From Escherichia phage MN05: a DNA stretch of 64,000 nt. Both the position numbers and the translations under genes were made by a program. The notes beneath the pieces were generated by a model that was not told the DNA's origin, made no database searches, and worked only from the letters and a program-made list of their open reading frames with translations. Shown here one piece after another: positions 59,445-63,896 of this stretch. How positions within the stretch are numbered: position 1 is the stretch's first letter; each line of letters opens with the position of its first letter. Location: the sequence record NC_070987.1, one strand, 5' to 3'.

Positions 59445-59687
59445 CTATGGAGTTAAGATAATTTCAGCCTTACTAAACTTCTCACCAACTTCAAGAGTAT
59501 CAGCAACAGGACGGGGCACACCTGTACCCAAACAAACAGCCCTTCGATACCCTCCAGTCACAGGCATCATCAAATAGATGATCTGATTATCATCTTCTTT
59601 TAAAGTGAAGATATCAGCGATCGCTAGATCTTTAACAAAGAGTTTCTTTTCTTCTTCATGATGAACTTTGATATGTATTGTGCTCAT
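59445..59687 (-). CDS. small beta-rich protein (possible member of paralog family C)
   Basis: 80 aa; weak resemblance to neighbouring family C genes. Confidence 0.3.
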   Translation of the reverse strand: MSTIHIKVHHEEEKKLFVKDLAIADIFTLKEDDNQIIYLMMPVTGGYRRAVCLGTGVPRPVADTLEVGEKFSKAEIILTP

Positions 59688-59689
59688 AC

Positions 59690-59935
59690 CTACTCCTGAA
59701 CCACTGACATACGAATCATTTCTACCTGATCATCAAGACCTTTAACAGATAATACACCTGTGGAAAGGTTTACCACAGGAACCCAACCACTGGCTATACG
59801 GATGTTACCAGAAGCATTTTCAACCCTCATGTAATACTGAGGAGAGGCACTTCCGTTCTGAACCACGAAAGGGTTTCCGGGAATGATTGTTTCCAATCGT
59901 ACCGTATTATCCTTTTTCTTTGGGATGATTTTCAT
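59690..59935 (-). CDS. small protein, paralog family C
   Basis: 81 aa; MKIIPKK...VRLETIIPGNPF...YMRV pattern. Confidence 0.35.
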   Translation of the reverse strand: MKIIPKKKDNTVRLETIIPGNPFVVQNGSASPQYYMRVENASGNIRIASGWVPVVNLSTGVLSVKGLDDQVEMIRMSVVQE

Positions 59936-60174
59936 TAGCCACCACTCACTAAAAGTTCAGCTGATACAGGGACAACTTGGCACGTAGAATCTGGTGCTGT
60001 TACAAGCCCGTCATGTAGACGAAGGGCTAGGGTACGTCCACTATTTACAGACACGTTGGGTGTGCCGTGAACAAAACCTTTAACATAAAGTGTGTCACTA
60101 TCTGGGTGCTTAAACACGGTCCCATTTTCTAAGGATTCAAGTGGGACACGATCAACTCTCTTTGTAATCTTCAT
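59935..60174 (-). CDS. small protein, paralog family C
   Basis: 79 aa; VPLESLENGTVFKHPDSDTLYVKG closely parallels 61811..62032. Confidence 0.4.
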   Translation of the reverse strand: MKITKRVDRVPLESLENGTVFKHPDSDTLYVKGFVHGTPNVSVNSGRTLALRLHDGLVTAPDSTCQVVPVSAELLVSGG

Positions 60175-60182
60175 ATTGATTC

Positions 60183-60494
60183 CTATTTAAGTTTTAGACT
60201 AATATTAAGGTGCATACATGCCCTGTTCTGTACAGCAGCATAACTTCTACCGAGCATGTCAGCCATTCTCTGAATAGACATGAACCCAGCATTACGGATA
60301 AGGAACTGATCTTCTTCTTCAGACCATTTAACTCGGATTGAAGCTCTTGATATTCCGAATTTAGTGCAAGCTGTGTTAACAGCATTCTCCGTTACATTCA
60401 TAATCTGAGCAACTTCTTGAACCGAGTACTCTTTGATTAGTCTCCGAAGATTTTCAATCTGCATCGGAGTCCATATAGTTCTTCGTGCTTTCAT
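60183..60494 (-). CDS. DNA-binding regulator with two Myb/SANT-like HTH repeats, putative
   Basis: 103 aa; two internal repeats W(T/S)xx(Q/E)...L..L......(V/I)(Q/R).(V/M)A..M......AV... ; RBS GGAGGA. Confidence 0.4.
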   Translation of the reverse strand: MKARRTIWTPMQIENLRRLIKEYSVQEVAQIMNVTENAVNTACTKFGISRASIRVKWSEEEDQFLIRNAGFMSIQRMADMLGRSYAAVQNRACMHLNISLKLK

Positions 60495-60848
60495 ACATCC
60501 TCCAATTAATTGTTAAAGCTATCAGGGGAGCACACTAGCTCTGGGCCACGCTGTAGATATCGGCCTGCCTTCCACAGCTAATCAGCTAATGTACTCTCCT
60601 AATAGTTTATGAATAGGGGGAGGGGACGAATCCTCCCATATCCTATTAATTAATATTGCATGTAAGATCTAACAATCGGTTGCCTTTGTAGGAATAAGCG
60701 TAAAGCCAATCCAGCACTAAACTCCCGCCCCCTTAGTGGGCTGGGTTATTAAAGGGTAACGCCCTTATGGGCTAGTTACATGAATGTTAGTTTGATAGGA
60801 GATCTGAAGTCCTATCTCAAAGGACTCTCGTAAGAATCCTTCACGATA

Positions 60849-61106
60849 TTACTTAAAGATAAAATGTATAACTGCATCATATGCTTTAGACAGAAGCCAA
60901 CCTATCGGATAACAAACTCCTGCCAATATTGAGATAGGCCACAACACAATTAAGATCACAACCATCATCTCATCAGGTTCAGAGCTGGTGGATCCTGTTG
61001 TAATGACCCCTTTTAGTAGACCTTTCTTGTATAGCAGTTTCAGCACTAAAACAGAAAGGAATACTCCAATAAAGTAAACTGAGATAAAAATATCAAGTAA
61101 ACCCAT
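60849..61106 (-). CDS. small membrane protein (paralog family E)
   Basis: 85 aa; two hydrophobic segments; VILIVLWPISILAGV parallels 61246..61491. Confidence 0.4.
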   Translation of the reverse strand: MGLLDIFISVYFIGVFLSVLVLKLLYKKGLLKGVITTGSTSSEPDEMMVVILIVLWPISILAGVCYPIGWLLSKAYDAVIHFIFK

Positions 61107-61245
61107 TTAATCGTCTCTTACTTATTCATCTCTCGTCGGCTGTCTCTCCAAGCCAACCAAGTGTAGGTTTTCAGTTCTTCAAAGTCTTCTGGAGAGAAGA
61201 GATAATCTTTGAAGGTGTTTCCAAACCACTCTAAAAATTCTTTAG

Positions 61246-61491
61246 TCATGAGTCCTCATACTTTTTGTTAGGAAGGATGAAATCCCAAAGAGCAGCCCAT
61301 ACTGCGAGAGATATAAACAGTACAGCAATGATAGGCCATAGGAAAACCATGGCTGCTATCTTTCCAAGGTCTGCTTCACCTCTCCAGTTTCTAAAGCATT
61401 CATCACCTTTAACATCTATAACCTTAATAAGTACTCCTGATAATACCATACCTATCAGATATACTATTAACACACTAACAAGACTGATCAC
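61246..61491 (-). CDS. small membrane protein (paralog family E)
   Basis: 81 aa; LIVYLIGMVLSGVLIK and MVFLWPIIAVLFISLAV. Confidence 0.4.
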   Translation of the reverse strand: MISLVSVLIVYLIGMVLSGVLIKVIDVKGDECFRNWRGEADLGKIAAMVFLWPIIAVLFISLAVWAALWDFILPNKKYEDS

Positions 61492-61690
61492 AAGGTTGAT
61501 CTCCGCATGTTTTACAGATCACTGGTGAGTAACTACAGGCAGGATATACTGACACTCCATCCCACGTCTCACACCCACAGTCAGGACATGTACCATTAGA
61601 AGTCATGTCATCATCGTCACACACATCACCGCCACCAAAACAACTCATATGAACTCCCCTATTAATTGAGAATCCAACTGCCATTCTCAT
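61475..61690 (-). CDS. Cys/Asp-rich small protein
   Basis: about 55 aa from an internal Met with CPDCGC...CKTCG...C pattern. Confidence 0.3.
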   Translation of the reverse strand: MRMAVGFSINRGVHMSCFGGGDVCDDDDMTSNGTCPDCGCETWDGVSVYPACSYSPVICKTCGDQPCDQSC

Positions 61691-61810
61691 CTATGAATGA
61701 AATCCAATCCCCTACACTCCACTTTGTAGTATCCCCTTTAGGGGATTCTCGGAGAGTGTACATTCCATTTCGAAAAAGCATTCGTTTAAGTTTCACTTAA
61801 GTTAAACTCC

Positions 61811-62758: not shown

Positions 62759-62777
62759 AACTATCTCCTACGTTGAT

Positions 62778-62853
62778 TGGTGCACCCTACAGGACTCGAA
62801 CCTGTAACCAACGACTTAGAAGGTCGCTGCTCTGTCCATTGAGCTAAGGGTGC
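62778..62853 (-). tRNA. tRNA-Arg (anticodon UCU) with encoded CCA
   Basis: 76 nt cloverleaf folded by hand: acceptor GCACCCT/AGGGTGC, D-arm GCTC/GAGC, anticodon loop CTTCTAA, T-arm ACAGG-TTCGAGT-CCTGT, 3' ACCA. Confidence 0.85.
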
Positions 62854-62862
62854 TAGATTTGT

Positions 62863-63072
62863 TTAACTAAAGATACGAATGGCTACATCATGACCGATAT
62901 GACCGGGAACTTTATGCTGTTCTATTTTCAAACAGTGTTTACAGATACGAGATACACGAGATTCTTTTCTCTCGACCGGAGTGTCTTTAGCGTGGGTGAT
63001 ATGTAGGTTCTCAGTGATCACCCACTCGTGTTTACATCCAGAATCTTCGGGCTTTTTCTTACGAAAGAACAT
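62863..63072 (-). CDS. small zinc-ribbon-like protein (paralog family F)
   Basis: about 69 aa from MFFRKKK; CKHEW ... CKHC pattern; listed ORF starts further upstream. Confidence 0.4.
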   Translation of the reverse strand: MFFRKKKPEDSGCKHEWVITENLHITHAKDTPVERKESRVSRICKHCLKIEQHKVPGHIGHDVAIRIFS

Positions 63073-63080
63073 AACACCCC

Positions 63081-63245
63081 TTAGATCAGATCTGTTTTCT
63101 TGTGCAGACCACACACTTTACAGCGAGAGTAGATACGCAACCCTTGTCGCTCTCTGTCAGTAAGTTTATTTGTGATCGTCAGTTCATAAGTATGAAGATC
63201 TTCCCACTCATGGAAATGAAAGAAGCGTTTGAACCATTTGATCAT
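63081..63245 (-). CDS. small zinc-ribbon-like protein (paralog family F; hand-translated)
   Basis: 54 aa MIKWFKRFFHFHEWEDLHTYELTITNKLTDRERQGLRIYSRCKVCGLHKKTDLI; below the ORF-track size cutoff. Confidence 0.45.
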   Translation of the reverse strand: MIKWFKRFFHFHEWEDLHTYELTITNKLTDRERQGLRIYSRCKVCGLHKKTDLI

Positions 63246-63254
63246 AATGATTCC

Positions 63255-63416
63255 TTAGATTACATCACGATGACTAACATCACCACACACCTTACACTGA
63301 ATAACGTAACGTGTGCCCTTGTCATTATTCCCATCTGAATCTGTATAGACCAGAGGGCGAGTATTAATAATCTTCCAATCATGACAATGAAAGACACGCT
63401 TTAGCCACTTGAACAT
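63255..63416 (-). CDS. small zinc-ribbon-like protein (paralog family F)
   Basis: about 53 aa from internal Met MFKWLKRVFHCHDW...CKVCG; the upstream part of listed ORF 63255..63590 overlaps the next gene. Confidence 0.4.
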   Translation of the reverse strand: MFKWLKRVFHCHDWKIINTRPLVYTDSDGNNDKGTRYVIQCKVCGDVSHRDVI

Positions 63417-63423
63417 ATTAACC

Positions 63424-63675
63424 TCAAGCACAAGCAGGGAGAGTGATGATTTTATACTTGTCATCAAACTCTCCAAATAAACCCAAGAATATAGGACTGT
63501 AAGTACCAGTACAAACAAACTCATCAAACAATGCGTTATAGCTAGGCTTAATCTTCCAAGCCCATACATAACCCATCTTATCAATTGCAATGTAACGAGT
63601 GTTCAGAGGAACAGTCATCATTACACCGTCAACTTCGATCACTTTAGTTATTGGTGCAGCTTGAAAGTTTTTCAT
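63424..63675 (-). CDS. hypothetical protein
   Basis: 83 aa ORF. Confidence 0.3.
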   Translation of the reverse strand: MKNFQAAPITKVIEVDGVMMTVPLNTRYIAIDKMGYVWAWKIKPSYNALFDEFVCTGTYSPIFLGLFGEFDDKYKIITLPACA

Positions 63676-63896
63676 CCTACTCTCCTAACATTTAGGGTAG
63701 CTTGATAGTATTTGACAGGGCAAGTTCTATCAAATGTAAATCTTGTTTCAGGATTCTTTATACAGATAGCATGTCTGTGCATAACCTTCATGTATAAAGG
63801 AGGTTTTGTATCCCCGTCTATTTCTAGAGAGAATACATCACCATTACGTAGACTACCAAAAGTATTATCTTTAGGTTCAGAGTGGACGATAATCAT
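63672..63896 (-). CDS. small protein, probable paralog family C
   Basis: 74 aa; FGSLRNGDVFSLEIDGDTKPPLYMKV parallels the family C N-terminal motif. Confidence 0.35.
   Translation of the reverse strand: MIIVHSEPKDNTFGSLRNGDVFSLEIDGDTKPPLYMKVMHRHAICIKNPETRFTFDRTCPVKYYQATLNVRRVG

What the first reader, a model, noticed from the sequence alone, without database searches (positions are those of the whole stretch)
59445..63896. Dispersed family of small beta-rich proteins in the early region
Seen in sequence: 59935..60174 and 61811..62032 share VPL(E/S)(S/T)L..G..F(K/R)H.D...(Y/W)(V/I)KG. 59690..59935 and 63672..63896 carry the related pattern L..(I/L)..G..F.......YMKV, and 59445..59687 is a weaker candidate. 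Inference: at least four paralogs of an unknown small domain, amplified in the region transcribed first on the minus strand.
Basis: seen in the sequence. Interest (0 to 1): 0.4.

Follow-up and report, generated by a model that had tools for sequence, protein, structure and literature searches.

The report
Multicopy SH3-like early phage protein family
Five small genes in the early region of this phiEco32-like coliphage are distant copies of one unnamed, widespread phage protein family with a small SH3-like beta-barrel fold; the family reaches 7-10 fast-diverging copies per genome in related phages and most likely supplies binding modules for host takeover or counter-defence, though its function is untested.

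Summary
All five ORFs exist at the stated coordinates on the minus strand. Raw pairwise BLAST is only marginal, but each subfamily matches a pooled profile of the others (A 7e-7, B 1e-9, C 2e-10, D 3e-12, E 4e-7), while reversed and shuffled controls stay at P>=0.045.

The window is a Kuravirus (phiEco32-like podovirus). Related genomes carry 7-10 copies in 11 subtypes, including a tandem block just past the window's right end.

An exhaustive profile search finds 1,115 cluster representatives, mostly stand-alone 68-87 aa proteins. These include phage N4 gp21 (2e-16), two-copy fusions and a bacterial SprT-like protein with five copies. No Pfam, NCBIfam or PDB relative exists; the members sit in at least 9 PHROGs of unknown function.

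Family members diverge far faster than their neighbours (56-70% identity against 98-100%) and show gain, loss and cassette swapping.

Best reading, which is inferred: non-enzymatic binding modules for host takeover or counter-defence. Moderate interest.

The parts
59445..59687 (-). Family member A (80 aa; phrog_12612), last gene of the tandem C-B-A block
   Evidence: ORF. Leave-one-out hhalign against the pool of the other nine subfamilies gives P 7e-7 over 55 columns, against 0.24 and 0.47 for controls. Family HMM 7e-14. 18 of 59 diverse family members also hit phrog_12612. AGGAG Shine-Dalgarno sequence upstream.
59690..59935 (-). Family member B (81 aa; phrog_7431)
   Evidence: ORF. Leave-one-out P 1.1e-9. 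Cross-hits to phrog_8365 at 1e-4 and phrog_7832 at 0.014. Family HMM 1.3e-17. Its start overlaps C's stop by 1 nt.
59935..60174 (-). Family member C (79 aa; phrog_7832), first gene after the HTH regulator
   Evidence: ORF. hhalign C-D 1.3e-7 and C-E 2.4e-5. Leave-one-out P 2.3e-10. AlphaFold model pLDDT 85.6, small beta-barrel. Positional orthologues are only 59-61% identical or undetectable in relatives.
61811..62032 (-). Family member D (73 aa; phrog_6570), isolated copy
63672..63896 (-). Family member E (74 aa; phrog_10911), divergent copy lacking the second conserved glycine
   Evidence: ORF. Leave-one-out P 4.3e-7 over 63 columns. hhalign C-E 2.4e-5 and E-J 4.6e-5. Present in only 2 of 5 compared relatives.
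60183..60494 (-). Context only, not a family member: HTH 'D5-like' transcriptional regulator gene, 8 nt upstream of the C-B-A block
   Evidence: phrog_323 at 1.2e-28 and Sigma70_r4_2 at 1.7e-7. It is 98-100% identical across five relatives, which is the contrast for the fast-diverging family genes next to it.

Best explanation
The five ORFs encode stand-alone, roughly 75-residue, five-stranded SH3-like beta-barrel domains. They belong to one large, unnamed family of proteins from virulent phages, the same family as phage N4 gp21. In phiEco32-like phages the family is present in 7-10 anciently diverged copies, all inside the early operon that host sigma70 RNA polymerase transcribes first.

Shown:
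- Homology of all five ORFs.
- The fold.
- The copy number and wider distribution.
- The lack of any conserved catalytic-type residues.
- Rapid divergence and gene turnover relative to neighbouring genes.

Inferred:
- The barrel is a non-enzymatic binding scaffold.
- Its conserved residues (L14, L17, G20, V22, F23, Y32, M33, V47, L49, G52, V63, L70 in D numbering) only build the core and turns.
- The length-variable beta2-beta3 loop and the variable surface let each paralog bind a different macromolecule, most likely a host protein.
- The array serves host takeover and/or counter-defence early in infection.
For: Homology: with negative controls.

Family breadth:
- 1,115 cluster representatives at E<=1e-3, mostly 68-87 aa and matched end to end.
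- N4 gp21 at 2e-16.
- BFVD matches in N4, EP335, PaP3, ZC08, Cronus, Myduc and 7-11.
- Tandem two-domain fusions with both domains at E<=1e-9 in four of the five examined; the weaker domain of the fifth, P0121, is 3.5e-5. This shows an autonomous folding unit.

Scaffold character: among 135 non-redundant sequences the conserved columns are hydrophobic or glycine (F23 100%, G20 96%, G52 95%, V63 92%). No conserved polar constellation is present, and columns 36-45 are variable and prone to indels.

Net charge is scattered: median pI 6.5, 40% below 6 and 16% above 8. This argues against one shared nucleic-acid-binding or DNA-mimic role.

Accessory, fast-evolving behaviour:
- The adjacent regulator is 98-100% identical in five relatives and most flanking genes 91-100%. 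Family genes drop to 56-70% (C 59-61% or undetectable).
- E is present in only 2 of 5 relatives.
- Copy number is 7, 8, 9, at least 9 and 10 in five genomes.
- TH38 carries an eleventh subtype where the window has an unrelated gene.

[quoted passage not shown] Precedent: Nip of phage Phi3T is an early-expressed counter-defence protein with two predicted SH3-like domains that binds and inhibits a host TIR NADase (PMC11984713).
Against: - No functional, interaction or expression data exist for any member; literature searches found none.
- The SH3-like barrel is a generic fold that also binds RNA and DNA (KOW, Tudor, EF-P, L2), so the fold does not discriminate between protein and nucleic-acid ligands.
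- Several moderately conserved polar positions (D21 48%, K34 54%, N48 55%, D60 40%) could form a shared functional site that I could not evaluate without model coordinates.
- N4 has a single copy in the 30 kb examined, and it sits outside the earliest-transcribed region, so 'early, multicopy' is lineage-specific.
- Other small early genes in this region also show presence/absence variation, so turnover is not unique to the family.
- Site-wise selection was not tested.
Confidence: 0.5

Rival explanations
1. The proteins are nucleic-acid-binding factors, with KOW-, Tudor-, EF-P- or L2-like use of the barrel. They would modulate transcription elongation or antitermination, translation or RNA stability of early messages, rather than bind host proteins.
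Against: Family-wide charge is not basic: median pI 6.5, 40% acidic, and the lowest decile has net charge of -7 or below. No member hits the KOW, Tudor, S1, Sm or any other Pfam model. No conserved basic or aromatic surface motif appears in the profile. Ten differently charged, rapidly diverging paralogs are hard to reconcile with one conserved nucleic-acid ligand.
Confidence: 0.2
2. The proteins are oligomeric 'sponges' that sequester small-molecule immune signals or other metabolites, working like Tad1, Tad2 or Acb2 without being related to them.
For: The proteins are small, early-expressed, in an accessory region and multicopy, which is typical of phage sponge proteins (general knowledge; a paper on Acb2, Tad1 and Tad2 sponges was listed but not read). 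A distant relative's contig carries the family close to NAMPT and PRPP-synthetase genes, which from my own knowledge resemble NAD+-replenishing counter-defence modules. This suggests counter-defence neighbourhoods.
Confidence: 0.1
3. The resemblance is chance or compositional convergence among unrelated small beta-rich ORFs, so there is no real family.
For: Direct pairwise blastp among the five is not significant (best E 0.034-0.05 in a five-sequence database). Identities are 11-26%. A is only marginal in pairwise profile comparisons (best P 1.6e-3).
Against: Leave-one-out profile tests give P of 7e-7 to 3e-12 over 55-68 co-linear columns for the five window subfamilies, against at least 0.045 for reversed and shuffled controls. 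The family HMM hits only these ORFs among 1,646. Independent PHROG models cross-hit. The exhaustive search returns more than 1,000 proteins of the same length aligned end to end. Both models share the same fold.
Confidence: 0.01

Closest known systems
Phage N4 gp21 (YP_950499.1 / A0MZB1) and its homologues in N4-like phages (EP335, ZC08)
   Same: Same family by sequence (family HMM against N4 gp21: 2.2e-16, 56 bits; closest to subfamilies D at 1.5e-7 and C at 1.3e-5) and by predicted structure (BFVD E 1.1e-4, TM 0.79). Same length (74 aa) and stand-alone architecture.
   Different: N4 has a single copy in the 30 kb examined. It lies among the gp18-gp22 accessory genes, not in the first-transcribed block. 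It is also uncharacterized, so it adds no function.
PHROGs 7832, 6570, 7431, 12612, 10911, 8365, 16423, 9955 and 34455 (all 'unknown function')
   Same: Each window protein is a clear member of one of these: A 1.4e-38, B 2e-31, C 2e-16, D 7.3e-24, E 1e-40. Diverse family members hit several of them at once.
   Different: PHROGs keeps them as separate families. The present analysis shows they form one superfamily with one fold. None carries an annotation.
SH3-like small beta-barrels of translation and transcription proteins (EF-P/eIF5A domain I, ribosomal L2 C-terminal domain, Spt5/NusG KOW) and Tudor/PWWP domains
   Different: Sequence identity is 5-16%, with no Pfam match to KOW, Tudor, PWWP or EFP_N. 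Foldseek E-values are not significant (best 0.11). The profile shows no evident Tudor-type aromatic cage or KOW motif. This is fold-level resemblance only.
Tudor-like RNA-polymerase-interacting domains (CarD/TRCF RID, UvrD/PcrA C-terminal domain)
   Different: They score no better than dozens of other SH3-like barrels, and no sequence relation or interaction was tested. This is a lead, not a result.
Nip of Bacillus phage Phi3T (counter-defence against the SpbK TIR NADase)
   Same: An early-expressed phage protein predicted to be built from SH3-like domains. It acts purely by binding and blocking a host defence protein (PMC11984713). It works the way I propose these proteins work.
   Different: Nip is 279 aa, with two SH3-like domains plus an HU-like dimerisation domain, and comes from a temperate Bacillus phage. 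No homology to this family was shown or tested.
phiEco32 gp79 (small early protein that displaces sigma70 and stabilises phage sigma gp36)
   Same: A small early protein of the same phage group, with a proven host-takeover role through RNAP binding (PMC12276001).

Membership tests
The new superfamily itself (N4 gp21-like small barrel; PHROGs 7832/6570/7431/12612/10911 and others) | Full-length match to the family profile: MKI..., L..L..GDVF, Y-M-K, (C/A)VNL.(T/N)G, V..P...A.L | tested here: met
   All five window ORFs score 7e-14 to 1.3e-17 against the HMM of 59 diverse members. Leave-one-out P is 7e-7 to 3e-12. E lacks the second glycine but aligns over 63 columns.
The new superfamily itself | Stand-alone domain of about 68-87 aa with a five-stranded small barrel | tested here: met
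   Lengths are 73-81 aa. AlphaFold models of D and C have pLDDT 81.7 and 85.6. A, B and E were not modelled individually.
SH3-like small beta-barrel fold class | Five antiparallel strands forming a closed or partly open barrel, with structural superposition on known SH3-like domains | tested here: met
KOW / translation-protein SH3-like families (Pfam KOW, EFP_N, Ribosomal_L2_C) | Sequence match to the family model | tested here: not met
   No Pfam hit for the five ORFs at E<=1 other than a spurious AGRB_N match for E (E 0.19), and none for any of 59 diverse members at E<=0.01.
Tudor / PWWP domains | Sequence match to the family model, and a conserved aromatic cage that reads methylated Lys/Arg | tested here: not met
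   No Pfam match. Few aromatic positions are conserved (F23 100%, Y32 77%, F57 41%). I infer F23 and Y32 are core residues. The cage geometry itself could not be examined without model coordinates.
Sm/Hfq fold | N-terminal alpha-helix followed by five strands with Sm1/Sm2 motifs; ring oligomers | tested here: not met
Tad2 (DUF2829) and other known sponge or anti-defence families | Sequence match to DUF2829 or similar; a ligand pocket formed in an oligomer | tested here: not met
   No Pfam hit and no sponge structure among the fold matches. Ligand binding is not testable with these tools.
phiEco32 gp79-type RNAP-binding early protein | Four-helix protein binding the RNAP clamp and gp36 | tested here: not met
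   gp79 is all-alpha (PMC12276001), whereas the family is all-beta. The PDB profile search found nothing.
Early (host-sigma70-transcribed) gene class of phiEco32-like phages | Location in the leftward-transcribed block downstream of the right-end sigma70 promoters | tested here: inconclusive
   Synteny with SU10 CDS 96-98, 102 and 107 lies within the early block defined as CDS 69-125, and the phiEco32 early class was determined experimentally. The promoters lie outside the window, and the consensus scan inside it found no excess of promoters. There is no expression data for this phage.
Counter-defence / host-takeover binder (functional class) | A demonstrated physical partner and a phenotype on defence-carrying hosts | not testable with these tools
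   Only indirect support is available: timing, turnover, scaffold-like conservation and the unexplained RM resistance of Gordonclarkvirinae.

The most novel reading that the evidence does not exclude
The family is a natural 'binder library'. One hyper-evolvable SH3-like scaffold is diversified into up to ten or more specificities per genome. Each copy would neutralise a different host defence or housekeeping target, and copies would be exchanged as cassettes among virulent phages of Gram-negative bacteria (Gordonclarkvirinae, Schitoviridae, large myophages). This would explain why Gordonclarkvirinae resist restriction-modification and nearly all tested defence systems without any recognisable inhibitor. 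It would also unify at least 9 orphan PHROGs and over 1,000 protein clusters into one anti-defence superfamily.
Probability: 0.15. Interest if true: 0.75.

Novelty: new variant of a known kind. Interest (0 to 1): 0.4.

Why it matters
Early-region ORFans are where phages keep their host-takeover and anti-defence tools, and most remain unclassified. This analysis joins at least nine 'unknown function' PHROGs, N4 gp21 and more than 1,000 metagenomic protein clusters into one superfamily with a defined fold and anatomy.

It also shows that phiEco32-like phages devote roughly 5-8% of their genes to the family (7-10 copies among about 109-136 annotated features), and that those genes are divergence and turnover hot spots.

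This gives a concrete, testable candidate set for the unexplained resistance of Gordonclarkvirinae to restriction and other defences (PMC11990801). These phages are frequently isolated on diverse E. coli strains, including avian pathogenic and multidrug-resistant ones. If the copies turn out to be specific inhibitors, the scaffold would also be of interest as a small evolvable binder.

Tried and rejected
- Raw pairwise blastp among the five ORFs was too weak to decide, so I replaced it with profile methods.
- The search for related loci with the family alignment failed because no stretch was conserved enough.
- The afdb50 fold library was unavailable.
- Single-sequence tblastn of a consensus-like member against 50,697 phage records found only one hit (Vibrio phage RYC). 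It is too insensitive for this family.
- A second word-indexed search with the deeper profile returned almost only the same Kuravirus proteins.
- The long multi-repeat hits of the exhaustive search (P0102 NHL, P0179 RCC1, P0109 cadherin-like, and others) are beta-repeat artefacts, not members.
- The villin hit in the PDB profile search is only the 'L..GDVF' motif within gelsolin repeats, with domain i-E-values of 5 or more.
- phiEco32 gp79 was considered as a possible member and rejected because it is a four-helix protein.
- The main text of the SU10 proteomics paper does not mention gp96-98, gp102, gp107 or gp111; the supplements were not searched.
- Literature searches for N4 gp21, Kuravirus paralogs and SH3-like anti-defence proteins gave no functional data.
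- The phage Tn-seq preprint does not cover N4 or Kuraviruses.
- The promoter and terminator consensus scans of 57-64 kb showed no excess over shuffles.
- Whole-gene dN/dS was not attempted. At 56-70% protein identity, synonymous sites would be saturated, and the many orthologues I had were protein sequences only.

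
Full report
**What the window is.** The 5-kb stretch matches phiEco32-like podoviruses of the genus Kuravirus (Gordonclarkvirinae). The best matches are TH38, EK5 and NJ01, at about 91-92% nucleotide identity over 77-81% of the query. In total 107 phage records match, nearly all from Escherichia phages. In window orientation the genes in question run on the minus strand.

**Check of the observation.** The ORF listing returns all five ORFs at exactly the stated coordinates:
- A 59445-59687 (80 aa)
- B 59690-59935 (81 aa)
- C 59935-60174 (79 aa)
- D 61811-62032 (73 aa)
- E 63672-63896 (74 aa)

All have ATG starts preceded by plausible Shine-Dalgarno sequences, and the genes are tightly packed. 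B's start overlaps C's stop by one base, A follows B after 2 nt, and C starts 8 nt after the stop of an HTH regulator gene.

C and D need a 2-residue indel. B reads YMRV rather than YMKV. E begins the motif with F, and in B and E the spacer is 11-12 residues rather than 7.

**Is the similarity more than chance?** Direct blastp among the five is only marginal (best E 0.034-0.05 in a five-sequence database). Profile evidence is decisive.

1. Each protein belongs to its own PHROG (12612, 7431, 7832, 6570, 10911) but cross-hits the others' families over the full length: D to 7832 at 3.5e-4, C to 6570 at 1.7e-3, B to 8365 at 1e-4, D to 7431 at 7.5e-3.
2. Iterative HMM searches seeded from C or D, against all ORFs of the window plus four related phages, merged B, C and D with further paralogs. 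They brought in A and E, and no unrelated ORF appeared even at E<=10.
3. I then defined ten orthologous groups (A-J) from the window and phages EK5, NJ01, Bas91 and SU10 and ran hhalign all against all. Results: C-D 1.3e-7, D-F 3.3e-7, H-J 3.3e-8, D-G 3e-6, D-I 6e-6, C-E 2.4e-5, C-J 2.2e-5, E-J 4.6e-5, B-C 1.7e-4. A was only 1.6e-3 to 2.2e-3.
4. In leave-one-out tests, each group was compared with a pooled profile of the other nine. This gave A 7e-7, B 1.1e-9, C 2.3e-10, D 2.9e-12 and E 4.3e-7, over 55-68 co-linear columns. Reversed and column-shuffled versions of the same queries gave P>=0.045, and 180 pairwise control comparisons gave a minimum P of 0.0098.

The family is real, and the 'weaker candidate' A is a member. 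Within the 64-kb window the family HMM hits exactly these five ORFs.

- Related Kuraviruses carry a further tandem block (groups F-J) a few kb beyond the position matching the window's right end. Examples are NJ01 locus L002 16135-17292 and SU10 gp111-114.
- Counts in the early regions examined are EK5 7, Bas91 8, SU10 9, TH38 at least 9 and NJ01 10.
- TH38 also has an eleventh subtype at the locus where the window carries an unrelated gene at 58765-58980.
- The window ends at 64000, so its own F-J complement cannot be seen.

**Distribution beyond the genus.**
- A word-indexed search of 5.8 billion proteins returned only hits from contigs of Kuravirus size, with no Pfam domains and only 'hypothetical protein' names.
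- An exhaustive HMMER search of 1.84 billion cluster representatives with a 22-sequence profile found 1,115 proteins at E<=1e-3. Most of the listed hits are 68-87 aa and aligned from residue 1 to the end.
- These include two-domain fusions. Both domains score E<=1e-9 in four of the five examined; the weaker domain of the fifth, P0121, scores 3.5e-5.
- They also include a Tenacibaculum MAG protein with an SprT-like N-terminal domain followed by five copies.
- The long NHL and RCC1 hits are repeat artefacts.
- Phage N4 gp21 matches the family HMM at 2.2e-16.
- A 90-kb contig resembling phage 7-11, with the same amidoligase/GATase/RimK module as Kuraviruses, carries two copies.
- Cluster look-ups show members on contigs of 61-184 kb, which I take to be other large phages.
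- Foldseek against BFVD matches same-sized uncharacterized proteins of N4, EP335, ZC08, PaP3, Cronus, Myduc, Hera, 7-11, and Vibrio and Xylella phages.

**No named family.**
- Pfam gave no meaningful hit for the five ORFs; the only match, for E, was a spurious one (AGRB_N, E 0.19). It gave no hit for any of 59 diverse members.
- NCBIfam gave no hit.
- There is no meaningful PDB sequence relative. The only hit reaching E 1e-3 is villin, which matches just the 'L..GDVF' motif in gelsolin repeats.
- Members are spread over at least nine PHROGs, all 'unknown function'.

**Fold.** AlphaFold2 models were made for D (22-sequence alignment; mean pLDDT 81.7, block means 90-94 over residues 11-60) and for C (59-sequence alignment; pLDDT 85.6). 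Both are small all-beta barrels.
- Foldseek of the independent C model gives the same classes with non-significant E-values, the best being 0.11.
- The fold class is therefore clear, but there is no specific structural relative and no family member has been solved.

**Anatomy (135 non-redundant sequences, D numbering).**
- The N-terminus reads M-K-I.
- Conserved positions are V12, L14, L17, G20 (96%), D21, V22, F23 (100%), Y32 (77%), M33, K34 and T35.
- A segment variable in sequence and length follows (columns 36-45, the beta2-beta3 hairpin). It is much longer in some paralogs, such as group H and P0111, P0120 and P0156.
- Then come C/A46, V47 (81%), N48, L49 (83%), T/N51, G52 (95%), L54, F57, D60, V63 (92%), P65, V66, A68 and L70.
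- The strongly conserved positions are core hydrophobics and two turn glycines. There is no His/Cys/Asp/Glu/Ser constellation of the kind enzymes show. This is a scaffold.
- Net charge is scattered: median pI 6.5, 40% below 6 and 16% above 8. Among the window copies, A is 5.9, B 9.2, C 6.8, D 6.5 and E 9.1.

**Evolutionary behaviour (tblastn of window proteins against five relatives).**

| Gene | Identity in relatives |
|---|---|
| HTH regulator 60183-60494 | 98-100% in all five |
| Most neighbouring non-family genes | 91-100% |
| A | 56-90% |
| B | 68-99% |
| C | 59-61%, or below detection in three of five |
| D | 56% in four, 95% in TH38 |
| E | present in only two of five |

Together with the copy-number variation and the cassette replacement in TH38, the family behaves as a fast-turnover accessory set. 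Some other small early genes also come and go, so this behaviour is enriched in the family but not exclusive to it. The paralogs share only 11-26% identity. 'Amplification' therefore means ancient duplication and/or repeated acquisition, not a recent burst. The closest pair, H-J, lies within the same tandem F-J block, separated by one gene, which is consistent with local duplication.

**Timing and context.**
- By synteny the window genes correspond to SU10 CDS 96-98, 102 and 107.
- The SU10 paper assigns CDS 69-125 to the early class, transcribed from sigma70 promoters between CDS 120 and 121 (PMC4281155).
- The promoters themselves lie outside the window, and a consensus scan inside 57-64 kb shows no excess of promoters.

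**Mechanism.** The shown results are the homologous family, the SH3-like barrel, the scaffold-type conservation, the variable loop, early-operon location by synteny, and rapid divergence and turnover.

The inference is that these are non-enzymatic binding modules, each paralog with its own target, used for host takeover or counter-defence. Three points support the inference:
- There is a precedent in Nip of Phi3T, an early counter-defence protein with two predicted SH3-like domains that works by binding a TIR NADase (PMC11984713). This is an analogy only.
- The scattered charge argues against one shared nucleic-acid ligand.

I put about 0.95 on homology and fold, and about 0.45-0.5 on the binder/host-takeover function.

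The rivals are:
- Nucleic-acid binding in the manner of KOW, EF-P, L2 or Tudor domains (0.2). It is supported by the top fold matches and by the basic five-copy array in the SprT-like protein.
- Small-molecule sponges (0.1).
- Chance similarity (0.01, refuted).

**Novelty and interest.** Multigene families of small early ORFans and SH3-like barrels are both familiar. I found no description of this family, of its unification across PHROGs and phage families, or of its 7-10-copy expansion in Kuraviruses. I rate it a new variant of a known kind, of moderate interest (0.4). It is a well-defined, testable candidate set rather than a surprise in itself.

**Limits.**
- There are no experimental data.
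- A, B and E were not modelled individually.
- The afdb50 library was unavailable.
- HHsearch against Pfam or PDB70 was not possible.
- The taxonomic spread of the 1,115 clusters was sampled, not enumerated.

Noticed in passing
window 60495-60848 (minus strand): A roughly 350-nt non-coding gap lies upstream of the HTH-regulator/C-B-A block. It folds far better than shuffles (MFE -114.7 kcal/mol, z = -4.46, 0 of 100 shuffles as stable) and contains G+C-rich hairpins such as GGGAGGAUUCGUCCCCUCCCC. It has no Rfam match. It could be a terminator/attenuator region, an sRNA or a processing site within the early operon. Gaps in the annotated genes of relatives occur at the same place (e.g. NJ01 L002 11479-11799).
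   Followed up: partly
window 62778-62853 (minus strand): A tRNA-Arg (anticodon TCT, reading AGA) sits among the early genes between D and E (ARAGORN; Rfam 71.9 bits). It is annotated at the equivalent position in EK5 and Bas91.
   Followed up: yes
window 63081-63245 and 63255-63590 (minus strand); possibly also 62863-63114: A second small paralog set: CxxC-containing, probably zinc-ribbon proteins sharing the pattern F(H/-)CH(E/D)W...CKVCG (39% identity over 54 aa, E 2e-9). The 111-aa TTG-start ORF 63255-63590 overlaps 63424-63675 in another frame and is probably shorter in reality (about 210 nt, as annotated in Bas91).
   Followed up: partly
window 41807-41992 / 42002-42181 and 37498-37782 / 37784-38035 (minus strand): Two further tandem pairs of small paralogous ORFs elsewhere on the minus strand (33% identity at E 7e-8; 49% identity at E 3e-14). 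Tandem duplication of small genes is a general habit of this genome.
   Followed up: no
window 58765-58980 versus TH38 L009 9739-9981, and Bas91/SU10 L003/L004 9517-9981: This is a cassette-swap locus. The window and EK5 carry a 71-aa Cys-rich ORF (phrog_33631), TH38 carries an eleventh subtype of the barrel family, and Bas91 and SU10 carry a 154-aa 'membrane protein'. Flanking genes are 94-100% identical.
   Followed up: partly
P0112 (MFV0249145.1, Tenacibaculum sp. MAG, 478 aa); P0118 (515 aa): The domain also occurs in a cellular-looking protein: an SprT-like zinc-metalloprotease N-terminus followed by five lysine/arginine-rich tandem copies (i-E-values 1.8e-5 to 2.6e-4 each). P0118 has about six copies. 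This may be a DNA-binding array and hints at the domain's ancestral role.
   Followed up: partly
L005 (Logan SRR32006982 contig, 90.6 kb) 1578-8275: The distant contig resembling phage 7-11 carries, a few kb from its family members, an AAA/nSTAND-like NTPase, a Band_7 protein, a ProQ-domain protein, PRPP synthetase and a NAMPT/NAPRTase. The last two resemble NAD+-salvage counter-defence modules. It also has the amidoligase/GATase/RimK block shared with Kuraviruses.
   Followed up: no
L001-L004 annotations (e.g. SU10 gp115, NJ01_136 'DNA helicase'; NJ01_132 'two-domain glycosyltransferase'; NJ01_129 'polymerase I...'): Several 58-98-aa early ORFs in GenBank and RefSeq records carry implausible functional names. 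NJ01_132, annotated 'putative two-domain glycosyltransferase', is in fact member G of the barrel family.
   Followed up: partly
PMC11990801 (BASEL completion paper): Gordonclarkvirinae are reported as remarkably resistant to RM systems with no known modification pathway or inhibitor, and as sensitive only to Fun/Z. This phenotype is unexplained, and the early-region families described here are candidates for it.
   Followed up: no
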